Origin: Ostreococcus lucimarinus
Taxonomy: Eukaryota
Assembly (NCBI GenBank): GCA_000092065.1
Contig: CP000590.1
Direction: 5' to 3' (one strand)
Length of the DNA stretch: 64,000 nt
Made by a program: the position numbers and the translations under genes
Notes under the pieces: generated by a model
Databases searched by the model: none
What the model saw: only the letters and a program-made list of their open reading frames with translations
Told to the model about the DNA's origin: nothing
Part shown: positions 12,044 to 60,396 of the stretch, in pieces
Position numbering within the stretch: position 1 is the first letter of the stretch
Layout of the letters: each line of letters opens with the position of its first letter

Positions 12044-15037
12044 CTACATCGGATTTATGAGGCCGATTGGCTGAGTCTGGCCTAAGCGGCCGCGCGGAGG
12101 CGTCGGCGGACGATCGCGGTTGACGTCTTGCAGCCACAAGTTGTCGTCGATGCGGTCGGAGGGCGATAAAGACTCCATGGCGATCGGTGGTAACGGGTGG
12201 ATGAGCTTGGGGTATAACGTCAGATCGCGCCCTAACACCAGAATCGCTCCGGCGTTATTCGCGGTCCCGCAATAGTTTGTTGCGCTAAAGACGGTGAGCA
12301 GTTGTCCTTGGGCGAAACGCTCGAAACCGTCCATGACGCACTCGTGCGCGCGGATGATCATCTGGATCCCGTTCGTTTCGCAGAACGCCTTCACACGATC
12401 TGGCCCGAAAGTCACGAGACCTGGACCCCGCGCGTTCGGGCGTAAACCTTCGATACCATCGTTCTCTGTCGGGTCGCTCCAGAGAATGTCCATGAGCTCG
12501 ACGCCGCCGTTTTCCATGTTCAACGGTCGCTTCAGCTCATTGATTTGCGAGATGTGCGTCAAGCTACGGCCGATACCACCGTGCATGCAGCAAATACGAT
12601 CCTCGATGACGGCCGCAAGCGGGAGCCATTCGAACAACTCGTTGAATCTTCGCCAGACTGCGTCGCCCGCGGATTCGCCCAGACGCTCGACGCACTCGAT
12701 GCGGAATCCAAACAACGCATTGATGTCCGACTCTTCGTGGTTACCGCGAAGTAAATGCACAGCTTGCGGGTGCTCAATTTTCAGCGCGAGCAGCAGAGAA
12801 ATGGTCTCCAAGGAGTACGCACCGCGATCGACGTAGTCTCCCAAGAAAACGTAATCGATGTATGCGATGTCGCCCGCCGTCGATGGCGCGCCGTATTCGG
12901 CGAATAACCGCATCAAATCTCCAAACTGACCGTGCAGGTCGCCAAAGATTTTCGCCGGACCTTTCACCGTAAGTACGGTCTCTTCGTTCTTGAAACAATG
13001 CTCTGCGGCGTCGCATAACTCGTTGATGGCGCTCGCGCTAAGAAAGAATCGACGATCCGTGCTCGGCTCCCAGGTGTGCGGATGAAGCAAGTGCGTGAGC
13101 ACGGCCTTGTGCACGGGTTGCGCCCCGAGCTCAGCGGCGCGTCTCGCGCGCGCCATCTTCGCTGGAGTGTCTCCGGGGGTGAGCATATCCACACCGGGAG
13201 TACCGATGCGTCGCGCCTCGTTTTCAAACTGATCGATGGACAGCTGCCGCACCATGCTCGCGACGCCTCGCGGCGTTGACTTCGCGCCAGAATCTGGCGG
13301 CGCGGCGGCAACGACTACGGCACGATGATGTAACCTAACTTCCGACGCGGGCGTGCGTAGAGCCGATTCTGGGGAGCCGAAACGAGCGAATCCAGGCGAT
13401 GGCGTGTGCACGGACGATCCCGGAGAGCCAGAGTCAGATTCGCCCAACGAAAACTTTCTTCGAGCGACCAACTCGAGCGCGGCTGCCGCTTCTTGCGCGC
13501 TCGCCGCACGCAGCTCTTTCTCCGCAGCGGCGTTCATGTTGTCGGGCGAATCCGGGGACCCCGGCGAACCTCCGAGCGGTCGCAAGGCGATGCCCTCGGG
13601 AGACGAGGGCGAACTGAAGGATCCGTTTGAATACGTTGCGTCTCGTTGCGTGTTGATTGCGAACGAGTCTCGAACGTTTCTCGGCGAGTGCATTCCTAAT
13701 ATATCAGCCGACAGCCCGGTTTCACCGAGCCATTTACGCCAAGCCAAGGAATTCGGATCGATGAGAGTCGCGAGCTCTCGCGTGCGTTCGGCGCGCGTCG
13801 AACCGCTCTCTTGCGGCGGCTCTTCGAGCACGACCAAATCATCCAACAACGTTCCGTTTCTCAAACCACCGTGCACGAAAATGAATGGACCATACGCCAC
13901 ACTTGCATGGCGGCACCGTCGTCCGACGAGTGAGCTCGCGTCGTAGGAAAGCTGTGCCTTGCCCTCGGAACTCTTCGCGTCCCGCCATCCCGTGCTTCCA
14001 CCCGACGACGTGTCCAGCATCGACATCGTCGCTTCGTTCGTGACGAGCTGTCCCCCACCCGACGCCCCACCGGTGATGTGCAATCTCGTGTCCACGAATG
14101 CGGTCGCGTGCTGGTATCGACGCGTTGGTGCCTTGCCCGGCGCTTCGGCCCACTCCCAACGCCCGTCGCGGTGCCTAGCCAAACCGTACGCGTCATTCAG
14201 CGCGAAACCGTCCGCACCGCGGCCACCGCAGAGCAGCAACAGACCATCGCTTCGAGTACTCGCGCTCGCGTACGTTCTCGCGCTCGGCACGGGCCCACTC
14301 GGCGCGCACTTGGTCCATTCGTACGGTTTCGTCGTCGTGTCCAACACCCACGTATCGTCCAAGCACTTCGAACCGTCCGTCCCCCCGATCACCACCAAAA
14401 ATCTCTGCGCCACGAAACTCAACACGTGCGCGTATCGTTGCCCCGGACCTTGCCCCCGCACGTGCACGCGGTGCCACTTCGGGTCCCTCGTCGCTAAATC
14501 CAACACGTACAAATCTTCATCCGCCAACCCGTCCGGCCCGATGCCGCCGAGCACGACGAGCATCCCTCCCACCGTGGCCGCCCCGTGCGCCGCCCGCGGG
14601 CTCGGCACGTCACCGCCGCACTCCAACTTCCCCCACTCCCCGTTAAACGGGTCCAAGACGTGCAATTCATTCGTCGCGCCGCTCAGCTTGACCCACGCGC
14701 CCGCGTCTCGACCCGCCTGCGGGCTCAACCCCACGTTCGCGCTCGCGTTCGCCCCGCTTCCGCCCTCGAGCTCGGTCGCACCCCCGAACGTGACTATCTT
14801 CGTCTTTTGATTCCATCGCAGCGCCGTCATCGTGTGTCCACAGCGCGCGCCCGGCGCCGAAGACGTCGCGAACGTTTTCGAGTCATTCGCGAACGTCGAC
14901 GCGTTATTCGTCGCGTCCGCGAACCCAGCGCGCGATCGCGTCGCGTCGAACGGCGCGGCGAGCATTCTTCGCCCTCTGCGCGCCCGCGCGACGCGCAGTT
15001 CGCCGCTCGCGCGTCGTTCTGACGCGCAGTCGTTCAA
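12044..15037 (-). CDS. Kelch-repeat serine/threonine protein phosphatase (BSU1/BSL/PPKL family, PP1-like catalytic domain)
   Basis: N-terminal Kelch propeller (GHTMTALRWNQKTKIVTFGG, PRAAHGAATVGGMLVVLGG and others). C-terminal PPP catalytic motifs GDLHGQFGDL, GDYVDRG, RGNHE, HGG and the tail. 997 aa continuous ORF. Confidence 0.9.
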   Translation of the reverse strand: MNDCASERRASGELRVARARRGRRMLAAPFDATRSRAGFADATNNASTFANDSKTFATSSAPGARCGHTMTALRWNQKTKIVTFGGATELEGGSGANASANVGLSPQAGRDAGAWVKLSGATNELHVLDPFNGEWGKLECGGDVPSPRAAHGAATVGGMLVVLGGIGPDGLADEDLYVLDLATRDPKWHRVHVRGQGPGQRYAHVLSFVAQRFLVVIGGTDGSKCLDDTWVLDTTTKPYEWTKCAPSGPVPSARTYASASTRSDGLLLLCGGRGADGFALNDAYGLARHRDGRWEWAEAPGKAPTRRYQHATAFVDTRLHITGGASGGGQLVTNEATMSMLDTSSGGSTGWRDAKSSEGKAQLSYDASSLVGRRCRHASVAYGPFIFVHGGLRNGTLLDDLVVLEEPPQESGSTRAERTRELATLIDPNSLAWRKWLGETGLSADILGMHSPRNVRDSFAINTQRDATYSNGSFSSPSSPEGIALRPLGGSPGSPDSPDNMNAAAEKELRAASAQEAAAALELVARRKFSLGESDSGSPGSSVHTPSPGFARFGSPESALRTPASEVRLHHRAVVVAAAPPDSGAKSTPRGVASMVRQLSIDQFENEARRIGTPGVDMLTPGDTPAKMARARRAAELGAQPVHKAVLTHLLHPHTWEPSTDRRFFLSASAINELCDAAEHCFKNEETVLTVKGPAKIFGDLHGQFGDLMRLFAEYGAPSTAGDIAYIDYVFLGDYVDRGAYSLETISLLLALKIEHPQAVHLLRGNHEESDINALFGFRIECVERLGESAGDAVWRRFNELFEWLPLAAVIEDRICCMHGGIGRSLTHISQINELKRPLNMENGGVELMDILWSDPTENDGIEGLRPNARGPGLVTFGPDRVKAFCETNGIQMIIRAHECVMDGFERFAQGQLLTVFSATNYCGTANNAGAILVLGRDLTLYPKLIHPLPPIAMESLSPSDRIDDNLWLQDVNRDRPPTPPRGRLGQTQPIGLINPM

Positions 15038-17016: not shown

Positions 17017-17913
17017 ATGCGCCTGGATCTCGCCCGCGTCGCCAGATTCGCCCAGCGCACGACGGGCGACGCTTCGGACGCGACGCCGAGTCGTCACACC
17101 ACTCCAGCGCGGCGTAAAACAATTTCAATGACGCTCATGGCCATCGTGCACGGCTTTGGATTACTCACCTTAACCGTCCCGGAAAACGATCTCACGGCGA
17201 ACGGGTTCGACAACAGCACCGCGCGTACGCTCCTCGCGCTGTTTGCGTTCGATGTCGTCGCGTACTGGCGCGTGCTCGGAAGCGATCCCGGATACGTGGA
17301 CGCGAGCGAGGACGCGAACGACGACGCCGAGGACGGCGAGCGACGCGCGTGCGAAAAATGCGCCGGCGCGCGCGTGCCGCTGCGAGCGAAACACTGTCAC
17401 GTGTGCGAAAGATGCGTGCGAAAATTTGATCATCACTGCTTTTGGGTCGGGACGTGCGTGGGCGAGCGGAACCACGGACGGTTTTGGTGGTTTTTGTTGG
17501 CGCAGTCGTGCGTCGCGGCGCACGCGTGTTGGATCGCGGTCACGGGCGTCGTGGGAGCGACGGTGAATCACGCGACGTGGTTCGATGTCTGGCGTGATAA
17601 CGCGTGGAGTGCGATGGCGTGCGGATACACGCAAATGATGACGCTGTTTGTGGGATTTTTATTCGTGTTTCACAGTTATTTATTGCTCAGCGGGCAGACG
17701 ACGTGGGAGGTGAGCAGCGAGCAGCGGGTGACGTATTTGCGGTCTTTACCGCGCGGGAGCAAGCCATTTGACGAGGGTGCGATCGAAAACGCGCGCACGG
17801 CGTGTTTTCCGAGAAAGATTCCCAAAACTTGGCGCATTCCGAGTGTAGAAACGTTGCAGGCTCGAGAAAACGAGCAAACCTTCTTCCAAAACGATCACTA
17901 TAGCTGCTTCTAG
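17017..17913 (+). CDS. DHHC-type protein S-acyltransferase (palmitoyltransferase)
   Basis: DHHC-CRD: [49 protein letters not shown], flanked by TM helices. True start may be an internal Met. Confidence 0.8.
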
Positions 17914-22700: not shown

Positions 22701-25319
22701 ATGAGCGAAGACACCGAAACCTTCGCCTTCCAGGCCGAGATCAACCAGCTGTTGTCGTTGATCATCAACGTGCGTCTCGACGCCGACCGCGACCGCGCGC
22801 GCGCCGCGAACGATCGCGGCGTCGCGACGCGCATCGCGATGGCGCGTCGCGGGACGACGGCGCGTCGAACGCATCGACGCGCTCGCGACGCGAGCGAACG
22901 ACTGACGAGGAAATCGTGGATTCGAAACGATCGCAGACGTTTTATTCCAACAAGGAAATCTTCTTGCGCGAGCTCATCAGGTGCGAGGCGCGAACGGCGA
23001 CGCGATTCGCGCGCGATGGCGATCGACGCATCGCGATGCGATGGCGGCGGTTGACTTTACGCGATGACGATGCGCGCGGGCGGGCGCGGGGGGGACGGAC
23101 GCGAGCGCGCGATGCGTGAGAATTCGTTTCGACGGGCGCGCGCGCGGGCGAGGACGCGCGCGCGAGGGATGGGGTAGAAAACGCGCGATCGTGATTCGGG
23201 CGTGCGTTTTCGAGTCATCTTCCAGAAGGGTGAAGAAGGCGCGACGGCGAGGACGAGCGGCGGCGCGCGCGAGCGAGACGCTTGGACGAACGGTGTGACT
23301 GACGACGAACGGTGTGTACGCGCGAATAATAGTAACTCTTCCGATGCGCTCGATAAGATTCGATTCGAGGGCTTGACGGATAAGTCCAAGCTCGAGTCCC
23401 AACCCGAGCTGTTCATTCACGTCGTGCCGGACAAGACGAATAACACGCTGACCATCATCGATAGCGGCGTGGGGATGACCAAGGCGGATCTCGTGAACAA
23501 TCTCGGTACGATCGCGCGTTCTGGTACGAAAGCGTTCATGGAAGCGCTCACCGCGGGGGCGGATATCTCGATGATTGGCCAGTTCGGCGTCGGTTTCTAC
23601 TCGTCGTACTTGGTCGCCGAAAAGGTCGTCGTGTACACCAAGCACAACGACGACGAGGGCTACCGATGGGAATCTCAAGCCGGTGGTTCGTTCACGGTGA
23701 CCAAGGACGCGTCCGCGAACGAACTCGGTCGTGGTACGAAGATGGTGCTTCACTTGAAGGATGATCAGCTCGAGTACCTCGAGGAGCGCCGCCTGAAGGA
23801 TTTGGTCAAGAAGCACTCTGAATTCATCTCGTACCCGATTTCGCTTTGGACCGAGAAGACGACCGAGAAGGAAGTCTCCGACGACGAAGCCGAGGAGGCT
23901 GGCGAGGAAGAAGAGGGCAAGATCACCGAAATCAAGGACGAGGGTGACGAGGTCAAGGAGAAGAAGACGAAGACGATCAAGGAAGTTTCTCACGAGTGGG
24001 CCATCATGAACAAGCAAAAGCCGATTTGGATGCGCGTGCCGGAAGAAATCACCAAGGATGAGTATGCTGCGTTCTACAAGTCGCTCACCAACGATTGGGA
24101 AGAGCAACTTGCGGTGAAGCACTTCGCCGTCGAAGGTCAATTGGAGTTCAAGTCGGTGCTCTTCGTCCCGAAGCGCGCGCCGTTTGATATGTTCGACGGC
24201 AAGAAGAAGTCGAACAACATCAAGTTGTACGTCCGTCGCGTTTTCATCATGGACAACTGCGAGGACATCATTCCGGAATACTTGGGCTTCGTTAAGGGCA
24301 TCGTCGACTCCGAAGATTTGCCGCTCAACATTTCTCGCGAAATGCTCCAGCAAAACAAGATTCTCAAGGTTATCAAGAAGAACATCGTCAAGAAGTGCCT
24401 CGAGATGTTCAATGAAATCGCCGAGAACAAGGATGACTACACCAAGTTCTACGAATCTTTCGGCAAGAACTTGAAGCTCGGTATTCACGAAGATGCGCAA
24501 AACCGCAGCAAGATCGCTGAGTTGATCCGATACTCTTCCACCAAGTCTGGCGAAGAGCAAACGTCGCTCAAGGATTACGTCACGCGCATGAAGGAGGGCC
24601 AAAAGGACATCTACTACATTACCGGCGAATCCAAGAAGGCGGTCGAGAACTCTCCGTTCATCGAGAAGCTCAAGAAGCGTGGCTACGAAGTTCTCTTCAT
24701 GACCGATCCGATCGACGAGTATGCGGTGCAACAGCTCAAGGAGTACGACGGCAAGAAGCTCGTCTCCGTCACCAAGGAAGGTCTGGAGCTCGACGAAACC
24801 GAGGAAGAGAAGAAGCAAAAGGAGGAAGTCAAGGCGCAATACGAGAACTTGTGCCGATTGATCAAGGACATCTTGGGCGACAAGATCGAGAAGTGCGTCG
24901 TCTCCGACCGCGTCGTCGACTCCCCGTGCGTGCTCGTCACCGGCGAATACGGCTGGAGCGCCAACATGGAGCGCATCATGAAGGCGCAAGCGCTTCGCGA
25001 CAACTCCATGGGTAGCTACATGTCGAGCAAGAAGACGATGGAAATCAATCCGGATAACTCCATCATGAAGGAGTTGCGCAAGCGCGCCGATGCGGACAAG
25101 GGTGACAAGACTGTCAAGGATTTGGTCCTCCTCGTATTCGAAACTGCGATGCTCACCTCTGGCTTCTCCTTGGACGAGCCGACGACGTTCGGCGGTCGCA
25201 TCCACCGCATGATCAAGCTCGGTCTCTCCATCGATGAGGACGACGCCCCGGCGGTTGATGACTTGCCCGCGCTCGAGGAAGAAGTCGACGAAGGTTCCCG
25301 CATGGAAGAAGTCGATTAA
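22701..25319 (+). CDS. HSP90: cytosolic heat shock protein 90 (HSP90/HSP83), 3 exons: 22701..22769, 22937..22980, 23333..25319
   Basis: Exon 1 encodes [23 protein letters not shown]. Exon 2 encodes [14 protein letters not shown](S). Exon 3 starts [17 protein letters not shown] and runs to MEEVD at the C-terminus. Splice sites gtgcgt...cgcag and gtgcgag...aatag restore the canonical HSP90 N-terminus exactly, and the phase is conserved. Confidence 0.92.
22770..22936 (+). other. intron 1 of HSP90 (167 nt, GC-rich)
   Basis: Donor GTGCGT, branch-like CGACTGACG 33 nt before the acceptor CGCAG. Joining the flanks gives ...LIIN|TFYSN... Confidence 0.85.
22981..23332 (+). other. intron 2 of HSP90 (352 nt, GC-rich, phase 2)
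   Basis: Donor GTGCGAG, branch-like GTGACTGACG, acceptor AATAG. Joining gives ...[13 protein letters not shown]. Confidence 0.85.
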
Positions 25320-33844: not shown

Positions 33845-36800
33845 ATGAGCGTTCACGATCGGTTCCCGCACTCGACCGCGGAGCTGTGCCGCGTAAACGC
33901 GGTGCAGTTTGGGGTGTTGTCGCCCGATGAGATCGTACGTGCATCGAACGCGCGCGCGCGCGAAGCGAAGGCGCGAAAGAGCGCCGGCGCGGGAGATCTT
34001 CGAGAGGGCGAGGCGGCGAGGGCGAACGCGCGACGCGGGCGACGAAGGCGAGCGAGCGCGCACTGACCGAACGTGAAACTTTCGCGCGATAGCGTAAAAT
34101 GTCCGTGTGCGCGATCGAGACGAGCGAGACGTACGAGAAGGGTAGACCCAAGCGAGGGGGTTTGTCCGATCCGCGCATGGGGACGATGGATCGCGGCGCG
34201 GTGTGCGAGACGGACGGGTGCGACAGCGTGCAGACGCCGGGTTACTTTGGGCATCTTGAGTTGGCGAAACCGGTGTACCATCATGGGTTCATCAACGTCG
34301 TGTTGAGAATTCTGAGATGCGTCGGATACTCGTCTTCGCAATTGTTGCTGCACAAGGACGAGGACCCAAAGTTTGCGCAGTTGATGCGAATCAAGAACCC
34401 GAAAAACCGATTGAAGAAACTCACCGACGCGTGTAAAACCAAGAGCGTGTGTCCGTACACCGGGACGGCGCAACCGCAGTATCGTTTGGAGGGAATGAAG
34501 ATCACCGCCGAGTTCAAGCACCGCGACGAGGAGCTGTTGCCGGAAGGTGGCGAACGCAAGGTGATCGTCACCGCGGAGCGCGCGTTACAGATCTTGAAGG
34601 CGATTTCTGACGAGGATTGCCGTGCGCTGGGTCTCGACCCCGAGCACGCGCGTCCGGATTGGTTCATCTTGCAAGTGATGCCCGTGCCGCCGCCGCCGGT
34701 TCGTCCGTCGGTGTCGTTCGACGCTTCCACGCGCTCGGAGGACGATTTGACGGTCAAGCTCATGGAAATCGTGAGAACGAATAAAAATTTAGAGAGACAA
34801 GAACAAAATGGAGCGCCGCAGCACGTCATTTTAGAATTTACAGAGCTGCTTCAGTATCACATCATGACCTTCATGGACAACACGGTGGCTGGCATGCCGC
34901 GAGCGCTCACGCGCAGCGGCCGAAGCATTAAATCCATTTCAGAGCGTTTGAAGGGCAAGGCGGGTAGAATTCGAGGCAACTTGATGGGTAAGCGCGTGGA
35001 TTTCTCTGCGCGTACCGTCATTACGCCCGATCCAAACTTGATGCTCGACGAGCTCGGAGTTCCGTGGTCCATCGCGTTGAACATGACGTATCCGGAAACC
35101 GTGACGCCGTACAACATCGATCGCCTTCAACGATTGGTCGAGAACGGCCCGCATCCACCTCCTGGTGAGACCGGTGCGCGTTACATCATTCGTGAGGATG
35201 GTCAGCGACTCGATCTTCGCTTCTTGAAGAAGTCGAGCGAGAAGCGTCTCGAGTACGGTTACAAAGTTGAACGTCACATGGTGAACGGAGACGTCGTCCT
35301 GTTCAATCGTCAACCTTCTTTGCACAAGATGTCCATCATGGGTCATCGCGTCCGAATCATGCCTTACTCGACGTTCAGATTGAACTTGTCTGTCACGCCG
35401 CCATACAACGCTGATTTTGATGGGGATGAAATGAACATGCACCTTCCGCAGTCTTACGAGACACGCGCGGAGGTGAAGGAGTTGATGATGGTACCGAAAA
35501 TGATCGTATCGCCCCAGGCCAACAAGCCCGTGATGGCTATCGTGCAAGACACCTTGTTGGGTTGCCGCTTGATCACGAAGCGCGACACCTTCATCACAAA
35601 GGACGTCTTCATGAACATCATCATGTGGTTGGAGGATTGGGACGGGAAGGTGCCGAAGCCGGCTATCCTCAAACCCCAACCTTTGTGGACTGGTAAACAA
35701 GTGTTTTCGATGATGTTACCGAAGGTGAACTTGCTTCGCACGAGTGCGTGGGCCAAGGACTCCGACGACATGGCTTTCAGCGTGGACGACACCGGTGTCC
35801 GAATTGAACAAGGCGAATTGCTCACCGGGACGCTGTGCAAGAAGACTATGGGTAGCGGCGGTGGCGGTTTGATCCACGTGACCTGGGAAGAGTGGGGTCC
35901 CATCGCCGCACGCGGGCTCATCTCTCAGACGCAGACGCTCGTCAACTACTGGGTGCTCCACCACGGTTTCACCGTCGGCATTGCGGATACCATTGCGGAC
36001 GACGAGACAATGTTCTCCATTAACAACACCATCACCAAGGCTAAAGCTGACGTGAAGGAAGTCATCAAACTCGCACAAAACAATGAACTCGAGTTGCAAC
36101 CGGGTATGACGATGCAACAATCGTTCGAACAGAAGGTGAACCAAATCTTGAACAAGGCGCGTGATAACGCTGGTAACTCGGCGCAAAACTCGCTTATGGA
36201 TACCAACAATGTCAAGATGATGGTGACGGCCGGTTCGAAGGGTTCGTTCTTGAACATTTCGCAGATGATTGCGTGTGTAGGACAACAAAACGTAGAAGGA
36301 AAACGTATTCCGTACGGTTTCAAAGGCAGAACATTGCCGCACTTTAGCAAGGATGATTTCGGTCCCGAGTCGCGTGGTTTCGTCGAGAACTCGTATTTGC
36401 GTGGTTTGACTCCTCAGGAGTTCTTTTTCCACGCCATGGGTGGCCGAGAAGGTTTGATCGATACTGCAGTTAAGACGTCTGAAACTGGTTACATCCAACG
36501 TCGTCTTGTCAAGGCTATGGAGGACGTGGTTGTCAAGTACGACGGCACTGTGCGTAACAGCGTCGGCGACGTCATCCAGTTCTTGTACGGCGAGGACGGC
36601 ATGGACGCGACCATGATTGAAAGCCAATCCATCGATACGTTGCGTTTCAGCGTGAAGGAGTTCGCGGCGAAGTTCCACATCGATCCAGATGTCCCGGGCT
36701 TTAACAATGGCTGGTTGAGCGAGGAGCAAGCGAGCGAACTCGCGCACACTGCAAAGGTGCGCGAGATTCTTGACGCAGAATGGGATCGACTTCAGCGCGA

Positions 36801-38943
36801 CCGAGTCGAACTGCGAACGATTTGTCCCACAGGGGATCCTCACGTGCACTTACCAGTGAACATGAAGCGTATCTTGTGGAATGCACAAAAGCAGTACGGC
36901 CTGTACCGACCGGATTCTGGCGAAGAAGAGGTCAAGGTGACGCACATCATCGAGAGCGTCGCTGAACTTTTGCCGAAGCTCATCGTGGTGCCTGGTACAG
37001 ATCCGTTATCCGTCGAAGCGCAAAGAAACGGTACGATGCTATTTTTCGCGCACGTGCGCGCCAATTTGGCAGCCAAGCGCGTGCTGAAAGAACACAAGCT
37101 CACGCGCGCCGGCTTCGACTGGGTCATCGGCGAAATCGAATCACGCTTCAAGATGGCACTTGCGCCGCCCGGTGATGGTATTGGCACGGTTGCCGCGCAA
37201 TCAATCGGTGAGCCGGCGACGCAGATGACGTTGAATACGTTCCACTTCGCCGGTGTGTCCGCCAAGAACGTGACCCTTGGTGTGCCGCGCTTGAAAGAAA
37301 TCATCAACATCGCGAAGAGCATCAAGACGCCAAGCTTGACGATCGCACTCAAGCCAGAGTTAGCTGGTGACAGAACGAGAGCGAAGGACTGTCAAGCGAG
37401 CCTAGAGTACACCACGCTCCACAGCGTTGCCGCAGTCACCGAGGTTCACTACGATCCAGATCCCACGGACACTGTCATCGAGGAAGACCGCGAATTCGTT
37501 CGCGCGTACTACGAAATGCCAGACGAAGACGTTGACCCGTCGCGCATGTCCCCATGGTTGTTGCGTATCGAGCTTAACCGTGAGATGATGGTAGACAAGA
37601 AGCTCCTCATGGCGGATGTTGCGGAGAGAATCAACGAAGATTTCGCCGGCGACTTGAGCTGCATCTTCAACGACGACAACTCTGAAAAGTTGGTGTTGAG
37701 AATTAGAATCATGAACCCCGAAGGCGTGAAATACGAGGACGCCTCGACCGAGGACGAAGTATTCTTGAAGCGTCTCGAGACGCAGATGTTGAGCAACCTT
37801 GCATTGCGCGGTATTCCAGACATTAAGAAGGTTTTCATCCGCGAAGCCAAACAAAACGCCATCAACAGCAAGACGGAGCTCTTCGAGAAAACCACCGAGT
37901 GGATGTTGGACACCGAAGGCGTCAACTTGCTCGAAGTCATGGCACATCCGGACGTCGACTTCACGAGAACTACATCTAACCACTTGATTGAAGTGATTCA
38001 AGTTCTTGGCATCGAAGCGGTGCGCAATACGCTCTTGCGTGAGTTGCGTGGTGTGATTGAGTTCGACGGTTCGTACGTGAACTACAGACATCTCGCGATT
38101 CTCGTCGAAGTGATGACATACCGTGGTCACTTGATGTCGATTACGCGACACGGCATCAACCGCGTGGAGACCGGTCCGCTCATGCGCTGCAGCTTCGAAG
38201 AAACTGTCGACATTCTCATGGAGGCGTCGGCGTTCTCTGAGCGAGACAATATGACTGGGCCGAGCGAGAATATCATGCTCGGGCAGTTCTGTCCGATCGG
38301 TACCGGGGAGTTCAAGCTGCACTTGAACGACGAGTTGTTACAAGATGCAGTTGAGTTAGAACTGTTCGGGGATGGATCTAGGACCCCTGGACACGGCGGA
38401 ATGATGACGCCGGGGCGCGATGGAACGCCCGGTTGGGGATCAAAGTCGCCGAGTTTCTTGTTGAGTCCAGGTGGACATCAAAGTCCGTTCGATACAAGCA
38501 TGGCATTCTCGCCGTACTCCGATGGCATGGCGTTCTCACCGGGAATGTCCCCTGGTGGTTTTGGAGGTTACTCCCCCACGAGTCCAGCGTATTCTCCGAC
38601 GAGCCCAGCATACTCCCCCACGAGTCCGGCGTACTCGCCCACGAGCCCAGCGTACTCGCCCACGAGTCCAGCGTACTCGCCCACGAGCCCGGCTTACTCG
38701 CCCACGAGTCCAGCGTACTCCCCCACGAGTCCAGCGTACTCCCCCACGAGTCCGGCGTACTCGCCCACGAGCCCAGCGTACTCGCCCACGAGTCCAGCGT
38801 ACTCGCCCACGAGCCCGGCTTACTCGCCCACGAGTCCAGCGTACTCCCCCACGAGTCCAGCGTACTCCCCCACGAGTCCGGCGTACTCGCCCACGAGCCC
38901 AGCGTACTCCCCGAAAGAGGAAGAAGAAAACGAAGAAGAATAG
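33845..38943 (+). CDS. RPB1: DNA-directed RNA polymerase II largest subunit RPB1, 2 exons: 33845..33934, 34093..38943; CTD of 16 perfect YSPTSPA heptads
   Basis: Exon 1 encodes ...VNAVQFGVLSPDEI. Exon 2 continues RKMSVCAIETSE..., which restores the conserved VQFGxLSPDEIRxMSV. All RPB1 regions A-H are recognisable (NADFDGDEMN metal-binding site and others). The C-terminus holds tandem YSPTSPA repeats ending YSPKEEEENEEE. Confidence 0.93.
33935..34092 (+). other. RPB1 intron (158 nt, phase 0)
   Basis: Donor GTACGTG, branch-like GCACTGACC 30 nt before the acceptor GATAG. Confidence 0.85.
38569..38904 (+). repeat. RPB1 CTD heptad array: 16 x 21-bp units encoding YSPTSPA, containing a perfect 126-bp (6-heptad) tandem duplication (38632..38757 = 38758..38883)
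   Basis: Unit-by-unit reading shows synonymous variation between neighbouring heptads. The 6-unit block is repeated identically, and a 7th identical unit starts a third copy. Confidence 0.9.
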
Positions 38944-57069: not shown

Positions 57070-58248
57070 TCAACGCCAGCGCGAGCGGGCGATGTTGAGG
57101 ATGATTTGCGCGACGGCGTCGTACACCACGGGGCGGTAGTGGACGCCGTCGACGGAGCACTCCGCGCCGCACAGGGCGGTGATTTCGCGCGCGCGCACGC
57201 GCACCGCCGGACCGGCGGGGAGGACGATCCTCGTTGACTTTTGGTCGTCTCGTATTTTGGCGTACCGCGCCAGATTCGTGTCGGTAAATTTGACGCGTTT
57301 GTCCTCGGCGACGAGCTTGTCGCGAATCACGAGCGCGGCGTCGATCCACACAATCACCACCTTTGGATGCGCCGCCTCGATCGTGCGCACGCGCGCACCG
57401 AGCGCGGCCATCGTCGTCTTGTACCTAGACACCGATTCGTCGTGCAAAACGTGCCACAGCGCCGTGGATATGACGATCAAATCCGGCGCGTCGCGCTCGC
57501 CGTACGCGTCCAGCGCGTCGACGACGTCCGACGCGTACGGCGCCCACGTAAACGTCGCCTTCGCCCCCCCGACCAAGTCGTGCGCCCAATCGCGATGTTT
57601 CTCCCCATCCTTCGTCGTCAAGCTCACGTCGCTCCACGCATCGCTCGTCGCCGCGACGAATCCCCCGTACGCGTTTCTCGCGCCCGAGTCGCCCAAAAAC
57701 GCCGCGCGCCGCCCTTCGATCAATTTCCCCACCCTGTTCCCCCGCGCCGTCGCCGCCAACCGCCCGAACCCGCACGTCTCCCCCACGTCCTCGCGCATGA
57801 CCCACGCCAGGGCGTTTTCTCGCCCCCTTCGTCCTCTCTTTCCTCCGCGTCCCCGTCCCCGCGTCTCCGCGTCGTCCTCGTCGCCGCACCCCGTCCTCGC
57901 CAGCGTCCACGCGCGCGTCGCGCACGCGCTCGCGCCGCGCGTCCACGTCCCTCGCCACGCGTGCGTCGCGCACCCGTCGACGTCGACCGCGAACGCGCCG
58001 ACGTCGACGTCGTCGTCGCGCGTCGTCGTCGTCGTCCCCGTCGTCGCGTCTCGCGGCGCGTCGCGCGTCGTCGCCGCGCGCGCCGCGCACGCGACCGCCG
58101 CGCACGCGAGCGCGACGACCGTCGCGACGCGCGCCTTCGTCGCCGTCGCCGTCGGCGCGCGCGCGTCGCCGCGCGCGCGCATGCGCGCCGCGCTCTGCCG
58201 CGCGCCGCCGCGCGTCCCGGCACATCGTCGCGCGCGACGGCGCGCCAT
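57070..58248 (-). CDS. PC-esterase/SGNH-type (TBL/PMR5-like) domain protein with signal-anchor
   Basis: GDS motif in FLGDSGARNAYGG and DxxH motif in SVDGVHYRPVVYDA; hydrophobic N-terminal segment. The true start is probably an internal Met. Confidence 0.6.
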   Translation of the reverse strand: MARRRARRCAGTRGGARQSAARMRARGDARAPTATATKARVATVVALACAAVACAARAATTRDAPRDATTGTTTTTRDDDVDVGAFAVDVDGCATHAWRGTWTRGASACATRAWTLARTGCGDEDDAETRGRGRGGKRGRRGRENALAWVMREDVGETCGFGRLAATARGNRVGKLIEGRRAAFLGDSGARNAYGGFVAATSDAWSDVSLTTKDGEKHRDWAHDLVGGAKATFTWAPYASDVVDALDAYGERDAPDLIVISTALWHVLHDESVSRYKTTMAALGARVRTIEAAHPKVVIVWIDAALVIRDKLVAEDKRVKFTDTNLARYAKIRDDQKSTRIVLPAGPAVRVRAREITALCGAECSVDGVHYRPVVYDAVAQIILNIARSRWR

Positions 58249-58720
58249 GGCGTCCGCGCGCGGCGTCGTGCTCGGGTGCGCGCGAATCGCGCGCGTCTCG
58301 CGCGCGCGACTGACGACGGCGCGCAGCGCGTACAGAGAGCTCGTGTGGCTCGCGCGACGCGCGCGGGCGGAGGAGCGGCGAAGACTCGAGGACGTCGTCG
58401 CGGACGTCGCGCGGCGCGCGCGCGCGGCGCGCGGGGCGAACGCGACGGCGGCGGACGTCGCGGACGGCGTGCGACGATTGGTGGGGACGGTGGGGTACGC
58501 GCGAGCGATGACGTCGAGGGTCGGGCGACGACGGTTCGAGTGGGACGAGGACGCGCGCGAGGCGACGCGCGTCGTGGAGCGAACGGGAGGAAAGAGCGGA
58601 CGCGAACGCGTCGCGAACGGCGTGCTGAGTCGAGAAGACGCGTGGGCGTATCACAATAGGTTGATCGATCGACAACACTTCGGGAGACGGTTGAAAAAGT
58701 TTAAGCCGGAACCGCTGTAG
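58247..58720 (+). CDS. hypothetical small protein with LYR-like motif (Complex1_LYR-type)
   Basis: RSAYRELVWLARRARAEERRRLEDVV resembles the LYR/F motif. Non-repetitive C-terminus ...AWAYHNRLIDRQHFGRRLKKFKP. It lies at the 3' end of a long plus-strand ORF that is otherwise antisense noise. Confidence 0.4.
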   Translation: MASARGVVLGCARIARVSRARLTTARSAYRELVWLARRARAEERRRLEDVVADVARRARAARGANATAADVADGVRRLVGTVGYARAMTSRVGRRRFEWDEDAREATRVVERTGGKSGRERVANGVLSREDAWAYHNRLIDRQHFGRRLKKFKPEPL

Positions 58721-58776: not shown

Positions 58777-60396
58777 TTAATCTTTTCTCGTCGCGCTGGC
58801 GAGCTCGTGCCTTCGCTGACGCATGCTCTTTTGCAATTCTGATCCGACGTCTGGATCCGAGGCGATCGCCCACGCCATCTCGCGTCGACCCATGACCAGA
58901 CATTGCACTTCGGTTTGGGCGATGACGTCGGCGTTGCGTCGACCGCCGATCCATTTCTTGGCGACCATTCTCGCGCTCACCCACGATTTCAGTGTGAATT
59001 TCTCCCCTTTTTTTCTCTTGGGCGGGCCTTTGGCGAGGACTTCCGCAATGCGTTTATCAATCATCGCGCGCGACGATGAGGCTGACTTGCTTTTCGCAAT
59101 CAACCGATCGCCGAGAGCCATCTCTCCGATGAATTCGCCCGGCTCGCGCTTGGCCACCTGCGCGCCCTGGTCGCGCAAGATGTTCCGGTCCGCGTCCACC
59201 GGACTGACGACAATTTTCACACTGCCGGACTTAATGAGAAACACTTCATCGGTCGCGCGTGCGCCCTGATGAATGAGGATATCACCGGCTTCGTACTTTC
59301 TCAACGGAAGCTTCATGCCCTTCGCGAAGTCGCGAAGCTTGGATTTAATGCGCAGAGGCGCCGGTCGCACGCTCTCCACTTGTTGCAACCATGGATGCTT
59401 GAGGCAGTTTGCCGGGGTCAAACGATGGACCGGTTTGTGCGCCAGACACGACATGACGAACTCGCGAGCCGTTTCACTCACGGAGTCCCACTCGAAGCAA
59501 TCAAAACCAAAATCGCGTTGGACGACGCGTCCGTACTTCAACGCGCTCTTCCACAAGCTCCTCGGCATGGCGCCCGTGAGCAACACGTACGTGATGACAC
59601 CGAGAGACCACATATCGATCGCACCACCGTACGACTTTTGCTCCACGACCTCCGGCGCGGCGAACACGGGCGTACCCACGGGCGCGGTATCGATCCCTCG
59701 GCTGTGCGGCAACGACCCCAACCCTTCAGGGTTTTGGCACCGTCTCGCCAACCCGAAATCCGCGATCACGACGCTCGCGAGATCATCGTTCGACCGCAGC
59801 AATAAGTTCTCCAGCTTCAAATCTCGATGTAACACAAAATTTTTATGCATGTAATCGATCCCTTGCACCGTGCGCTGCACCACCACCTTCGCCTCCGCCT
59901 CGGTGTATCGCTCGCTCTTCATGCGCAAAATCGCGTCCAACACCGCCCCCCCGTGCAGGACCTCCGTCACGACGTACACCTTATCGCCGTACCAGTGGCA
60001 CTCTTCGAGTCTCAACATCGTCGGCGACGTCAACACGCGCAGAATATCGATCTCACTCGTGACCTCGTTCACGCTCATGCGTTCCTTCCCATGTTCGTCC
60101 TTGTCCGCGTCCGCGTCCGCGTCGCCCTCCTTGACGCTGATGATCTTCATCGCGTACGTCTTCGCGCTCTGACGATGGCGCACTTTGCGCACGACGCTGA
60201 AACCGCCCGCACCGAGCGACTCGAGGTCGTCGTAGCGCTCCATCGGGTCGCGCTCCGCGCGCTTCAGCTTCACCGGCGGGACGCTCGGCATCGTCTCGCG
60301 CGTCGCCGGCGCGCCGCCGTCGCGCGTGCGCGCGCTGCCGCGCTTTCGAGGCTTCGGCGACGCATCGCCGTCGGGTTTGGAGGCGACGCAACCCAT
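58777..60396 (-). CDS. Ser/Thr protein kinase (CaMK-like) with C-terminal cyclic-nucleotide-binding domain and N-terminal MGC acylation motif
   Basis: Start MGCVASKPDG. Kinase subdomains LGAGGFSVV, AMK, HRDLKLENLLL, DFGLA, APE. C-terminal CNB domain FLIKSGSVKIV...GEFIGEMAL...RNADVIAQTEVQCLVM. The upstream part of the ORF is antisense to the ABCG gene. Confidence 0.85.
   Translation of the reverse strand: MGCVASKPDGDASPKPRKRGSARTRDGGAPATRETMPSVPPVKLKRAERDPMERYDDLESLGAGGFSVVRKVRHRQSAKTYAMKIISVKEGDADADADKDEHGKERMSVNEVTSEIDILRVLTSPTMLRLEECHWYGDKVYVVTEVLHGGAVLDAILRMKSERYTEAEAKVVVQRTVQGIDYMHKNFVLHRDLKLENLLLRSNDDLASVVIADFGLARRCQNPEGLGSLPHSRGIDTAPVGTPVFAAPEVVEQKSYGGAIDMWSLGVITYVLLTGAMPRSLWKSALKYGRVVQRDFGFDCFEWDSVSETAREFVMSCLAHKPVHRLTPANCLKHPWLQQVESVRPAPLRIKSKLRDFAKGMKLPLRKYEAGDILIHQGARATDEVFLIKSGSVKIVVSPVDADRNILRDQGAQVAKREPGEFIGEMALGDRLIAKSKSASSSRAMIDKRIAEVLAKGPPKRKKGEKFTLKSWVSARMVAKKWIGGRRNADVIAQTEVQCLVMGRREMAWAIASDPDVGSELQKSMRQRRHELASATRKD

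What the first reader, a model, noticed from the sequence alone, without database searches (positions are those of the whole stretch)
58777..60396. Protein kinase with the cyclic-nucleotide-binding domain C-terminal to the catalytic domain, plus N-terminal MGC acylation site
PKG and PKA-R place CNB domains N-terminal to, or separate from, the kinase. Here a CaMK/CDPK-like catalytic domain is followed by a linker (KLRDFAKGMKLPLRKYEAGD) and a single CNB domain with canonical GEFIGEMAL and RNADVIAQT elements. This mirrors the CDPK layout but with cNMP sensing in place of EF hands. MGCVASK predicts myristoylation/palmitoylation and membrane anchoring.
Basis: partly seen in the sequence, partly recalled or inferred. 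Interest (0 to 1): 0.55.

Follow-up and report, generated by a model that had tools for sequence, protein, structure and literature searches.

The report
Algal CaMK-type kinase with cyclic-nucleotide sensor
This is a real, single-exon gene of a marine picoalga (Ostreococcus) for a lipid-anchorable CaMK-type protein kinase with a cyclic-nucleotide-binding domain at its C-terminal end, a layout already present in sequence databases but not described in any paper I could search, and whose nucleotide pocket carries an unusual 54-residue insertion.

Summary
Window 58777-60396 (minus strand) is one uninterrupted 539-codon ORF starting MGCVASK. Pfam finds Pkinase (residues 55-337, E 2.8e-57) and cNMP_binding (48 bits against a cut-off of 27.5).

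The kinase belongs to the CAMK group, with CaMKI, CaMKII and CDPK1 as the closest solved structures, and all catalytic residues are present. The C-terminal part folds as a CNB domain. Its best structural match is PKG I CNB-B.

The phosphate-binding cassette is split by a 54-residue coding insertion, giving 61 residues between GE and the Arg against 8-24 in short-cassette paralogues. Asn also replaces the usual Ser/Thr after the Arg.

The gene is not unique. Orthologues exist in O. tauri (Q010C3, named "RmlC-like jelly roll fold") and Micromonas pusilla (C1MI79). Related subfamilies include M. commoda "gliding motility related CaM kinase". I found no functional study.

The most likely reading is a membrane-tethered kinase in which cNMP binding to the C-terminal CNB relieves autoinhibition through a CaMK-like junction helix. 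Ligand binding itself is untested.

Verdict: an uncharacterised variant of cNMP-regulated kinases, of moderate interest.

The parts
58777..60396 (-). Complete single-exon CDS (539 codons plus TAA stop) of the kinase-CNB protein
   Evidence: ORF list and translation. The identical protein is found on three other contigs. GC3 of 0.76 against GC2 of 0.44 shows coding periodicity.
60376..60396 (-). MGCVASK: N-terminal Gly2 myristoylation and Cys3 palmitoylation motif
   Evidence: It fits G-{EDRKHPFYW}-x2-[STAGCN]-{P}. The pattern is present in 25 of 25 homologues with a complete N-terminus, and 17 of these start MGC. A Phytophthora CAMK1 (P0097) starts MGCVSSKPD. Acylation itself is inferred.
60235..60375 (-). 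Residues 8-54: low-complexity, poorly conserved N-terminal arm
   Evidence: pLDDT is below 50 for residues 1-38. The region is variable in alignments A1/A2.
59386..60234 (-). Residues 55-337: CAMK-group Ser/Thr protein kinase domain, catalytically complete
   Evidence: Pfam Pkinase E 2.8e-57. The best solved relatives are CaMKI gamma/delta/alpha, CaMKII and CDPK1, at E about 1e-40 to 1e-38. K84 (YAMK), E115, H190-R191-D192, D213-F214-G215 and A247-P248-E249 are present; all except K84 are invariant in A2.
59302..59385 (-). Residues 338-365: junction (QQVESVRPAPLRIKSKLRDFAKGMKLPL), the proposed autoinhibitory/relay helix and CNB N-helix
   Evidence: Near-invariant in subfamily A. It aligns to the N-terminal helix of PKG I CNB-B. 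The predicted helix spans 353-360. hhalign places it in register with the RxFNARRKF segment of CNB-less CAMK1-like relatives, but weakly (E 0.012, probability 3.6%).
59110..59301 (-). Residues 366-429: N-terminal part of the CNB beta-barrel, ending in G420-E-F-I-G424-E425-M-A-L (start of the phosphate-binding cassette)
   Evidence: First stretch of Pfam cNMP_binding, 366-429. Predicted beta strands have pLDDT 76-89. G424 and E425 are invariant in A2 and A3.
58948..59109 (-). Residues 430-483: coding insertion inside the phosphate-binding cassette. It has a variable Ser/Lys-rich loop plus a conserved basic helix, SWVSARMVAKKWI
   Evidence: The reading frame is kept, both other frames have stops, and no credible GT..AG intron exists. 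Indels against orthologues are multiples of three, with synonymous-only codon changes. Low pLDDT in the loop; helix at 469-483. The KKW(I/V)GxRR end is conserved in subfamilies A and C.
58780..58947 (-). Residues 484-539: end of the cassette (G-G-R-R487-N488-A489-D-V), the last barrel strands and the C-terminal B/C helices
   Evidence: It aligns to RTANVIAAEAVTCLV of PKG I CNB-B. R487 is invariant and A489 nearly invariant. Predicted strands at 490-493 and 497-502 and helices at 504-538.

Best explanation
The locus is an intron-less nuclear gene of an Ostreococcus-type picoalga. It encodes a 539-residue Ser/Thr kinase built in the order:
- acylation motif (MGC)
- disordered arm
- active CAMK-group kinase domain
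- a 28-residue conserved basic junction
- one cyclic-nucleotide-binding (CNB) domain

It is the orthologue of O. tauri Q010C3 and M. pusilla C1MI79.

Proposed mechanism:
1. The protein is tethered to a membrane by N-myristoylation and S-palmitoylation.
2. At rest, the junction helix, which is at the same time the N-terminal helix of the CNB domain, holds the kinase in an autoinhibited state, as the regulatory segment does in CaMKs and CDPKs.
3. A cyclic nucleotide binds in the CNB barrel, contacting the conserved Gly-Glu and Arg-x-Ala of the phosphate-binding cassette.
4. Binding moves the cassette and the flanking helices, pulls the junction away and switches the kinase on.

The 54-residue insertion in the cassette sits next to the pocket. 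It probably tunes or adds a second input to this switch.

Shown: the gene structure, the two domains, intact catalytic residues, the CNB fold, retention of the Gly-Glu and Arg-x-Ala motif positions, the insertion being coding, and conservation of the family.
Inferred: acylation, ligand binding, ligand identity, and the direction and route of regulation.
For: One ORF with both domains:
- Both Pfam domains score above their thresholds.
- The kinase is closest to CaMKI, CaMKII and CDPK1. The catalytic residues are invariant in 36 homologues, apart from the VAIK Lys K84, which I read from the window sequence only.

CNB fold:
- The AF2 model of the C-terminal 207 residues matches PKG I CNB-B (4ku8, E 1.7e-8), CRP-family proteins and PKA RI CNB-B.
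- Sequence-level hits also go to PKG I CNB-B.

Motif positions that contact the ligand in characterised CNB domains:
- G424, E425 and R487 are invariant, and A489 nearly invariant, across three subfamilies down to about 30% identity.
- Short-cassette paralogues have a canonical GEMAV-x(8-18)-(P/A)RTASV.
- This argues the domain family is a genuine ligand binder.

Single gene and coding insertion:
- The fused ORF is present on independent contigs and in syntenic loci of species 90% and 70% identical.
- An MMETSP transcript marked 'type:complete' encodes the 474-residue M. commoda paralogue, so the fusion is transcribed as one unit there.
- The insertion shows codon periodicity, in-frame indels and synonymous changes.

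Other support:
- The N-myristoylation pattern is conserved in 25 of 25 complete N-termini.
- The junction is highly conserved and aligns in register with the regulatory segment of CNB-less CAMK1-like relatives (weak).
- cNMP signalling exists in this lineage. O. tauri is reported to have five further kinases with cNMP-binding domains (PMC4143559). Cyclase-coupled modular rhodopsins are described for Ostreococcus (PMC7693036).
Against: - No ligand-binding or activity data exist for any member. I found no paper on the family.
- The phosphate-binding cassette is interrupted by 54 residues, giving a GE-to-Arg spacing of 61 against 8-24 in short-cassette relatives. I know of no characterised cNMP-binding CNB with such an insertion.
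- The residue after the Arg is Asn in this clade, Thr in Micromonas/Bathycoccus and Gly in subfamily C. A position that helps read the base in PKG is therefore not conserved.
- The CNB region is divergent. Only 85 of 1.84 billion representatives match it at E<=0.001 with a single-sequence search.
- The AF2 full-length model has pTM 0.56 and low confidence at 344-351 and 426-461. It says nothing reliable about how the domains pack.
- The junction/CaMK similarity is statistically weak.
Confidence: 0.55

Rival explanations
1. The C-terminal domain is a CNB-homology domain that no longer binds cyclic nucleotides. It would serve as a constitutive autoinhibitory, dimerisation or docking module, or bind another small ligand. 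Precedents are KCNH-channel CNBHDs, which are self-liganded, and trypanosomatid PKA regulatory subunits, which bind nucleosides. Both precedents are from general knowledge.
For: - A 54-residue insertion splits the phosphate-binding cassette.
- The residue after the Arg varies between N, T, G and S among subfamilies.
- The CNB sequence is very divergent, with weak phmmer E-values of about 1e-3 to PKG CNB-B and only 85 library hits.
- The long C-terminal helix 515-538 could mediate dimerisation.
Against: - The Gly-Glu and Arg-x-Ala motif positions (G424, E425, R487, A489) are invariant or nearly so across all three subfamilies. From general knowledge, these positions contact the ribose and phosphate in characterised CNB domains and are lost in non-binding CNBHDs. 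I did not test that here.
- Paralogues with an uninterrupted, fully canonical cassette (GEMAV...PRTASV) are clearly homologous end to end.
- The end of the insertion, KKW(I/V)GxRR, is conserved. It is predicted helical directly before the Arg, where the cassette helix normally sits.
Confidence: 0.3
2. The CNB domain does bind cNMP, but its role is targeting or scaffolding at a membrane signalling site rather than allosteric control of the attached kinase. In that case the kinase would be controlled mainly by activation-loop phosphorylation or by the insertion.
For: - The activation loop is about 10 residues longer than in the CAMK1-like and paralogue sequences it was aligned with (gaps at 225-233).
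- It carries a conserved Thr/Ser five residues before GTP (T237; Ser or Thr in homologues).
- The insertion is Ser- and Lys-rich.
- There is no reliable interdomain prediction.
Against: - Kinase and CNB are separated by only about 28 residues.
- Those residues are among the most conserved in the protein. That is hard to explain for a passive tether.
- From general knowledge, in characterised kinases with fused or associated CNB domains (PKG, PKA holoenzyme) the CNB domains control activity.
Confidence: 0.12
3. Gene-model artefact: the kinase and the CNB part are separate genes, or the 'insertion' is an unspliced in-frame intron.
For: Only that the window is raw genomic DNA and no transcript of this exact gene was examined.
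Against: - There is no stop codon between the parts.
- The fusion is conserved across Ostreococcus, Bathycoccus-like, Micromonas and Cymbomonas sequences.
- A complete MMETSP transcript encodes the fused paralogue.
- The insertion has codon periodicity (GC by codon position 0.43/0.48/0.65) and stops in the other frames. None of the 10 in-frame GT..AG pairs starts with a GTAAG/GTGAG-type donor sequence (my reading; no splice-site model was run).
- Indels against orthologues are whole codons, and there are 12 synonymous-only codon changes against the 70% orthologue within residues 430-470.
- The C-terminal part of the insertion is conserved at protein level between subfamilies.
Confidence: 0.03

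Closest known systems
cGMP-dependent protein kinase (PKG), animal and apicomplexan
   Same: A protein kinase and its cyclic-nucleotide sensor sit on one polypeptide. The CNB domain here is closest, by sequence and by predicted fold, to PKG I CNB-B. Micromonas/Bathycoccus orthologues and subfamily B carry the PKG-like Arg-Thr-Ala.
   Different: PKG has an AGC-group kinase with two to four CNB domains N-terminal to it and an N-terminal autoinhibitory sequence. Here the kinase is CAMK-group and no AGC C-terminal-tail family (Pkinase_C) appears among the Pfam hits. There is a single CNB, it is C-terminal, and its cassette carries a 54-residue insertion with Arg-Asn-Ala.
Calcium-dependent protein kinases (CDPK) of plants, green algae and apicomplexans
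   Same: The order of parts is the same: N-terminal myristoylation/palmitoylation motif, variable arm, CAMK-group kinase, short junction, C-terminal second-messenger sensor. CDPK1 structures are among the best kinase matches.
   Different: The sensor is a CNB beta-barrel instead of four EF hands. No EF-hand family appears even at E<=1. The junction similarity to CaMK/CDPK regulatory segments is only suggestive.
CaMKI / CAMK1-like kinases of protists (for example Phytophthora cinnamomi CAMK/CAMK1, P0097)
   Same: These are the closest catalytic domains: 34% identity over 344 residues to P0097, which also starts MGCVSSKPD. CaMKI is the top solved structure.
   Different: They end in a calmodulin-regulated tail and have no CNB domain.
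Database orthologues and paralogues: O. tauri Q010C3/XP_003081585.1 ('RmlC-like jelly roll fold'), O. tauri OUS43352.1, M. pusilla C1MI79/XP_003055623.1 ('predicted protein'), M. commoda C1FGQ3/XP_002508045.1 ('gliding motility related cam kinase')
   Same: The architecture is the same. The O. tauri and M. pusilla proteins are orthologues, at 66% and 50% identity with full-length coverage and with the insertion. The M. commoda protein is a paralogue, 31% identical end to end.
   Different: The paralogue subfamily has an uninterrupted canonical cassette. Names in the databases are automatic and none reflects the kinase-plus-CNB design. I found no experimental work.
Other kinase/CNB combinations: plant and oomycete PP2C-CNB-(pseudo)kinase proteins (PMC3019232); Dictyostelium GbpC (general knowledge)
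   Same: These are a precedent that CNB domains are combined with non-PKG kinases. In GbpC the CNB domains lie C-terminal to the kinase. The P. infestans kinome table lists cNMP-binding domains in AGC and CAMK kinases.
   Different: They are much larger multidomain proteins with different kinase groups (an inactive AGC-like kinase, or a TKL/Roco kinase). They have no acylated CAMK-junction-CNB design.

Membership tests
Eukaryotic protein kinase, CAMK group | Pkinase profile above the curated threshold | tested here: met
   PF00069, 194.6 bits against a cut-off of 31.7, residues 55-337 covering profile positions 1-263 of 263.
Eukaryotic protein kinase, CAMK group | Catalytic residues: VAIK Lys, alpha-C Glu, HRD, DFG, APE | tested here: met
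   K84 (YAMK), E115, H190-R191-D192-L-K-L-E-N197, D213-F214-G215 and A247-P248-E249 are present in the sequence. All except K84 are invariant in 36 homologues; K84 is not in the invariant list.
Eukaryotic protein kinase, CAMK group | Closest characterised catalytic domains are CAMK-group members | tested here: met
   The top PDB sequence hits are CaMKI gamma/delta/alpha (E 2.5e-40 to 1.8e-39), followed by CaMKII, CDPK1, DAPK and the RSK C-terminal kinase. No formal phylogeny was made.
Cyclic nucleotide-binding domain (PF00027) | Profile match above the gathering score | tested here: met
   48.0 bits against 27.5, E 1.3e-12, in two stretches.
Cyclic nucleotide-binding domain (PF00027) | Eight-stranded beta-barrel flanked by helices | tested here: met
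   The AF2 model (pLDDT 71) shows the strands and the B/C helices. The top Foldseek hits shown are CNB-type domains of PKG, CRP-family regulators and PKA RI, with a best E of 1.7e-8.
Cyclic nucleotide-binding domain (PF00027) | Contiguous phosphate-binding cassette G-E-x-A-L-x(about 6-10)-R-[STA]-A | tested here: not met
   G424-E425 and R487-x-A489 are present, but 61 residues lie between GE and R, against 8-24 in short-cassette relatives. The residue after R is Asn.
Cyclic nucleotide-binding domain (PF00027) | Binds cAMP or cGMP | not testable with these tools
   Needs binding assays. The only indirect support is that the Gly-Glu and Arg-x-Ala motif positions are invariant or nearly so.
PKG (cGMP-dependent protein kinase) | AGC-group kinase with an AGC C-terminal tail | tested here: not met
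   The kinase is closest to CAMK members. Pkinase_C does not appear among the Pfam hits at E<=1.
PKG (cGMP-dependent protein kinase) | Tandem CNB domains N-terminal to the kinase | tested here: not met
   There is a single CNB, C-terminal to the kinase.
CDPK | C-terminal calmodulin-like domain with EF hands | tested here: not met
   No EF-hand family appears at E<=1. The C-terminal domain is a CNB.
CDPK | Autoinhibitory junction directly after the kinase domain | tested here: inconclusive
   There is a conserved basic helix-forming segment at 338-365. hhalign puts KLRDFAKGMKL in register with RMRVFNARRKF of CAMK1-like relatives, but at E 0.012 and probability 3.6%.
CDPK | N-terminal myristoylation/palmitoylation motif | tested here: met
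   MGCVASK fits the pattern, which is conserved in 25 of 25 complete homologues. Actual acylation was not tested.
Mamiellophyceae kinase-CNB family, insertion-bearing subfamily (O. tauri Q010C3, M. pusilla C1MI79) | Full-length similarity with the same architecture, including the cassette insertion ending in KKW(I/V)GxRR | tested here: met
   66% identity to the cluster holding Q010C3 and 50% to C1MI79, with 99-100% coverage. The alignment shows the shared insertion.
Mamiellophyceae kinase-CNB family, insertion-bearing subfamily (O. tauri Q010C3, M. pusilla C1MI79) | Conserved gene neighbourhood among Ostreococcus-type genomes | tested here: met
   The order MFS - Saf4/Yju2 - ABCG - kinase-CNB - ... 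- 2-hydroxyacid dehydrogenase - class II aldolase is seen in the window and in loci L001, L004 and L005. The O. tauri kinase and aldolase orthologues lie on the same contig.

The most novel reading that the evidence does not exclude
This family would be a second, independently evolved class of cyclic-nucleotide-dependent protein kinases. It would be a CDPK-style, membrane-anchored CAMK in which a C-terminal CNB domain replaces the calmodulin-like domain. cNMP binding would release a CaMK-type autoinhibitory junction. The conserved helix-loop insertion in the phosphate-binding cassette would provide a second regulatory input, such as phosphorylation or a protein or lipid partner, making the enzyme a coincidence detector in the smallest free-living eukaryotes.
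Probability: 0.3. Interest if true: 0.65.

Novelty: new variant of a known kind. Interest (0 to 1): 0.45.

Why it matters
All biochemically characterised cyclic-nucleotide-dependent kinases that I know of are AGC kinases. They are controlled by CNB domains placed N-terminally (PKG) or on a separate subunit (PKA).

A CAMK-group kinase with a C-terminal CNB would show that the 'kinase plus junction plus C-terminal sensor' design known from CDPKs has been re-used for a different second messenger.

Ostreococcus has a very small kinome, and I recall that gene targeting by homologous recombination works in O. tauri. The orthologue (Q010C3) would therefore be an unusually tractable entry point into cNMP signalling in marine picophytoplankton. 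That signalling includes possible links to the cyclase-coupled rhodopsins of these algae.

The split phosphate-binding cassette is also a natural test of how much the CNB pocket can be remodelled while keeping its key contacts.

If the domain turns out not to bind nucleotides, the gene is simply one more lineage-specific CAMK-like kinase with a degenerate regulatory domain.

Tried and rejected
- **In-frame intron in the CNB.** Rejected on codon periodicity, stops in the other frames, lack of credible splice sites, whole-codon indels and synonymous substitutions.
- **Two separate genes.** Rejected on the continuous ORF, wide conservation and a complete transcript of the paralogue.
- **PKG membership.** Rejected because the kinase is CAMK-group and the CNB is single and C-terminal.
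- **Literature.** Six successful full-text searches found no paper describing a CAMK kinase with a C-terminal CNB.
  - I could not map the orthologue to an Ot locus id. An attempt by synteny was dropped because the gene order was inconsistent with the published locus numbers (BSL Ot10g01220, HSP90 Ot10g00440).
  - The P. infestans kinome table lists cNMP-binding domains in AGC and CAMK kinases without giving the order of domains for the CAMK case.
- **Profile search with the CNB alignment.** It returned mostly fragments and no new named taxa.
- **AlphaFold-database fold search of the full-length model.** It could not be run because the library was not installed. The taxonomic range beyond prasinophyte green algae therefore remains open.
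- **Neighbouring genes.** They give no functional hint; all are unrelated housekeeping genes.
Full report
**What is there**

Window 58777-60396 on the minus strand is a single open reading frame of 539 codons plus a stop. It begins with MGCVASK. That is the first in-frame ATG downstream of the stop codon (60581) of an ABCG-type transporter gene on the same strand, leaving a 184-bp spacer.

Pfam reports two domains:
- A full-length protein kinase domain at residues 55-337, E 2.8e-57.
- A cyclic nucleotide-binding domain at 48.0 bits, against a curated cut-off of 27.5, matched in two separate stretches.

**Source organism and context**

The window has about 62% G+C and is densely packed with intron-poor eukaryotic housekeeping genes. 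These include:
- FtsH and a papain-type protease
- a DP transcription factor
- a Kelch-PP1 (BSL-type) phosphatase
- a DHHC palmitoyltransferase
- HSP90 and RPB1
- fumarase and class II aldolase

The aldolase is 85% identical to the cluster that holds the O. tauri protein, and 77% identical to Bathycoccus. The kinase-CNB protein is 66% identical to a cluster that holds O. tauri Q010C3/XP_003081585.1 and OUS43352.1. It is 50% identical to Micromonas pusilla C1MI79.

The window therefore comes from an Ostreococcus species other than O. tauri. I did not resolve which one. The identical protein is on three other public contigs. Orthologues 90% and 70% identical sit in the same gene order.

**The kinase**

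The closest solved structures by sequence are CaMKI gamma, delta and alpha (E about 1e-40), then CaMKII, apicomplexan CDPK1, DAPK and the RSK C-terminal kinase. The domain therefore belongs to the CAMK group, not the AGC group of PKA and PKG.

The catalytic residues are all present: the Lys of YAMK, E115, HRDLKLEN, DFG and APE. Apart from that Lys (K84), which I read only in the window sequence, they are invariant in an alignment of 36 homologues. The enzyme should therefore be active.

Two further features:
- The glycine loop reads GAGGFS, as I recall for CaMKI.
- The activation loop is about ten residues longer than in the CAMK1-like and paralogue sequences it was aligned with. It keeps a Thr/Ser five residues before GTP.

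**The N-terminus**

MGCVASK fits the N-myristoylation pattern, with Gly2 and Ser6, and has Cys3 available for palmitoylation. Among the homologues retrieved, every one whose predicted N-terminus is complete (25 of 25) starts MG(C/S/T/V) and fits the pattern. Seventeen of these start MGC. The rest are truncated inside the kinase domain or extended by gene-calling.

A CNB-less CAMK1 of Phytophthora cinnamomi starts MGCVSSKPD. This conservation supports both the start codon and a lipid anchor. Acylation itself remains an inference.

**The C-terminal domain**

A model of residues 333-539, built with 21 homologous sequences, has mean pLDDT 71. It shows the expected strands and the terminal helices. 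Its Foldseek matches in the PDB are led by PKG I CNB-B (4ku8, E 1.7e-8). They are followed by CRP-family regulators, PKA RI CNB-B and PKG II CNB-B.

phmmer also finds PKG I CNB-B first. It aligns RNADVIAQTEVQCLV with RTANVIAAEAVTCLV, and LRIKSKLRDFAKGM...YEAGDILIHQGAR with the N-terminal helix and first strands of that domain. This is a genuine CNB fold.

The two 'canonical elements' are the two ends of the phosphate-binding cassette, and here they are 61 residues apart. In short-cassette relatives the spacing is 8-24 residues. Residues 430-483 are an insertion between GEMALG and GGRRNADV.

I tested whether this could be an unspliced in-frame intron. It is not, for these reasons:
- The segment keeps codon periodicity, with GC by codon position 0.43/0.48/0.65.
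- Both other frames contain stops.
- None of the ten in-frame GT..AG pairs starts with a GTAAG/GTGAG-type donor sequence, by my reading. No splice-site model was run.
- Against orthologous DNA the indels are whole codons, and there are synonymous-only codon changes.
- Its C-terminal part (TLKSWVSARMVAKKWIGG) is conserved at protein level, including between subfamilies.

AF2 predicts the variable Ser/Lys-rich part with low confidence. It predicts a helix at 469-483 immediately before the cassette Arg, where the short cassette helix normally lies.

The residue after the Arg, which is Thr in PKG and Ala in PKA by general knowledge, is Asn in the Ostreococcus clade.

**A family with three subfamilies**

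Alignments show three groups with the same overall architecture.

| Subfamily | Members | Cassette |
|---|---|---|
| A | This gene, O. tauri Q010C3, M. pusilla C1MI79, Bathycoccus-like sequences | Insertion ending KKW(I/V)GxRR(T/N)AD |
| B | Includes M. commoda XP_002508045.1, annotated 'gliding motility related cam kinase' | Uninterrupted canonical cassette, GEMAV-x(8-18)-(P/A)RTASV |
| C | Environmental sequences | Insertion ending KNKWVGGRRGADVRA |

- The subfamily B protein from M. commoda is 31% identical to the window protein end to end.
- A Cymbomonas protein (P0059) has an insertion ending REWVGKRRSMSV and carries an extra MA3 domain (PF02847). I did not assign it to a subfamily.
- G424, E425 and R487 are invariant and A489 nearly invariant across all of these.
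- A single-sequence search of 1.84 billion representatives with the CNB region found only 85 hits. Of the 37 longer ones, 25 also have a kinase domain and 3 have EF hands as well.

The kinase-then-CNB design is therefore a small but real family of mostly marine environmental sequences. Its named members come only from prasinophyte green algae so far.

**The junction**

It is at once the first helix of the CNB domain and the segment that immediately follows the kinase C-lobe. That is the position of the autoinhibitory or regulatory helix in CaMKs and CDPKs.

CNB-less CAMK1-like relatives retrieved in the same search have (L/M)(R/K)xFNA(R/K)(R/K)K(F/L) at the same distance from HPW. From memory, the CaMKII regulatory segment (LKKFNARRKL) shows the same pattern. 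A profile-profile comparison aligns KLRDFAKGMKL with RMRVFNARRKF in that register. The statistics are weak, at E 0.012 and probability 3.6% over 26 columns, so I treat this as suggestive only.

The motif R-I-K-S, with Arg at -3, could be an autophosphorylation or pseudosubstrate site. It is Asn in M. pusilla. This is speculation.

**How it most likely works**

Putting the parts together gives the following model:
1. The protein is a membrane-tethered CAMK-type kinase.
2. Its activity is gated by its C-terminal CNB domain through the shared junction helix.
3. Ligand binding to the barrel, through the conserved Gly-Glu and Arg-x-Ala contacts, would move the cassette and flanking helices.
4. That movement would release the junction from the kinase.

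This is analogous in logic to PKG, PKA and Epac, and in layout to CDPKs. The insertion lies next to the pocket and may tune affinity or add a second input.

The lineage has cNMP signalling. The O. tauri kinome paper reports five other kinases with cNMP-binding domains (PMC4143559). Cyclase-coupled modular rhodopsins are described for Ostreococcus (PMC7693036).

Steps shown here: gene structure, domains, catalytic competence, CNB fold, retained motif positions, the coding insertion and family conservation.
Steps inferred: acylation, ligand binding and identity, autoinhibition and its relief.

**Rivals**

- **Degenerate CNB domain (about 0.3).** The main rival is that the CNB domain no longer binds cNMP, given the split cassette and the variable residue after the Arg. 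The invariance of the Gly-Glu and Arg-x-Ala positions, and the canonical paralogues, argue against it. Only a binding assay can decide.
- **Targeting only (about 0.12).** A weaker rival is that the CNB binds ligand but serves only for targeting.
- **Gene-model artefact (about 0.03).** This is effectively excluded.

**Comparison with the known, and novelty**

It is not a PKG, because the kinase group is wrong and the order and number of CNB domains are wrong. It is not a CDPK, because it has no EF hands. It works, at least on paper, like a hybrid of the two.

The sequence family has been in GenBank and UniProt since the O. tauri and Micromonas genomes, under uninformative automatic names. The P. 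infestans kinome table notes cNMP-binding domains in CAMK kinases. So the bare architecture is not a discovery.

I found no paper that describes or tests it. As far as I could find, the split cassette and the conserved junction have not been described.

I rate it a new variant of a known kind, that is, cNMP-regulated kinases. Interest is moderate at 0.45. It would be higher (about 0.65) if cNMP-dependent activation of a CAMK were demonstrated.

Noticed in passing
window 17017-17913 (+): A 298-residue ORF carries a DHHC palmitoyltransferase domain (E 9.7e-32). This is the enzyme class that would palmitoylate Cys3 of an MGC protein. It lies 41 kb away, so this is probably coincidence.
   Followed up: no
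window 58217-58720 (+) and 57070-58248 (-): A small convergent gene ends only 57 bp from the kinase stop codon. It is called as 166-192 residues in related loci L001 and L004. It overlaps the N-terminal low-complexity part of a 392-residue minus-strand ORF. Neither has any Pfam family. In this GC-rich DNA several long ORFs overlap on opposite strands, so the true starts are uncertain.
   Followed up: partly
window 12044-15037 (-): A Kelch-repeat plus PP1-type phosphatase (BSL/BSU1-like, 997 residues), a green-lineage signalling phosphatase. The O. tauri kinome paper lists a single 'BSL' phosphatase locus (Ot10g01220).
   Followed up: no
window 23202-25319 (+) vs 22977-25205 (-): A full-length HSP90 gene on the plus strand is mirrored by a 742-residue antisense ORF with no family match. 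This shows how high GC content creates long spurious ORFs here.
   Followed up: partly
window 34099-38943 (+): RNA polymerase II largest subunit (RPB1), including the C-terminal heptad repeats. The Pfam match to Rpb1 domain 1 starts at profile position 20, so the listed ORF may lack the true N-terminus, which could be an upstream exon or start.
   Followed up: no
P0059 (Cymbomonas tetramitiformis, 902 aa): A relative of the family carries, after the kinase and the insertion-bearing CNB, an additional C-terminal MA3 domain (PF02847, as found in eIF4G/PDCD4). Three other CNB relatives combine kinase, EF hands and CNB. The C-terminal sensor region of this kinase family seems to be a hotspot for domain shuffling.
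   Followed up: no
residues 89-108 of the protein (window about 60073-60132, -): An acidic low-complexity insert, KEGDADADADKDEHGKERMS, lies between kinase strand beta-3 and helix alpha-C. It is variable in length and sequence among homologues and has low pLDDT (92-104). Its function is unknown.
   Followed up: no
P0054-P0057 (brown algae Pylaiella, Ectocarpus, Ascophyllum): The closest CNB-less relatives of the kinase domain in brown algae are about 650-residue proteins. In them the CaMK-like regulatory segment is followed by what looks like a second glycine-loop/kinase start (GDVLGKGAYS), so they may be tandem kinases.
   Followed up: no
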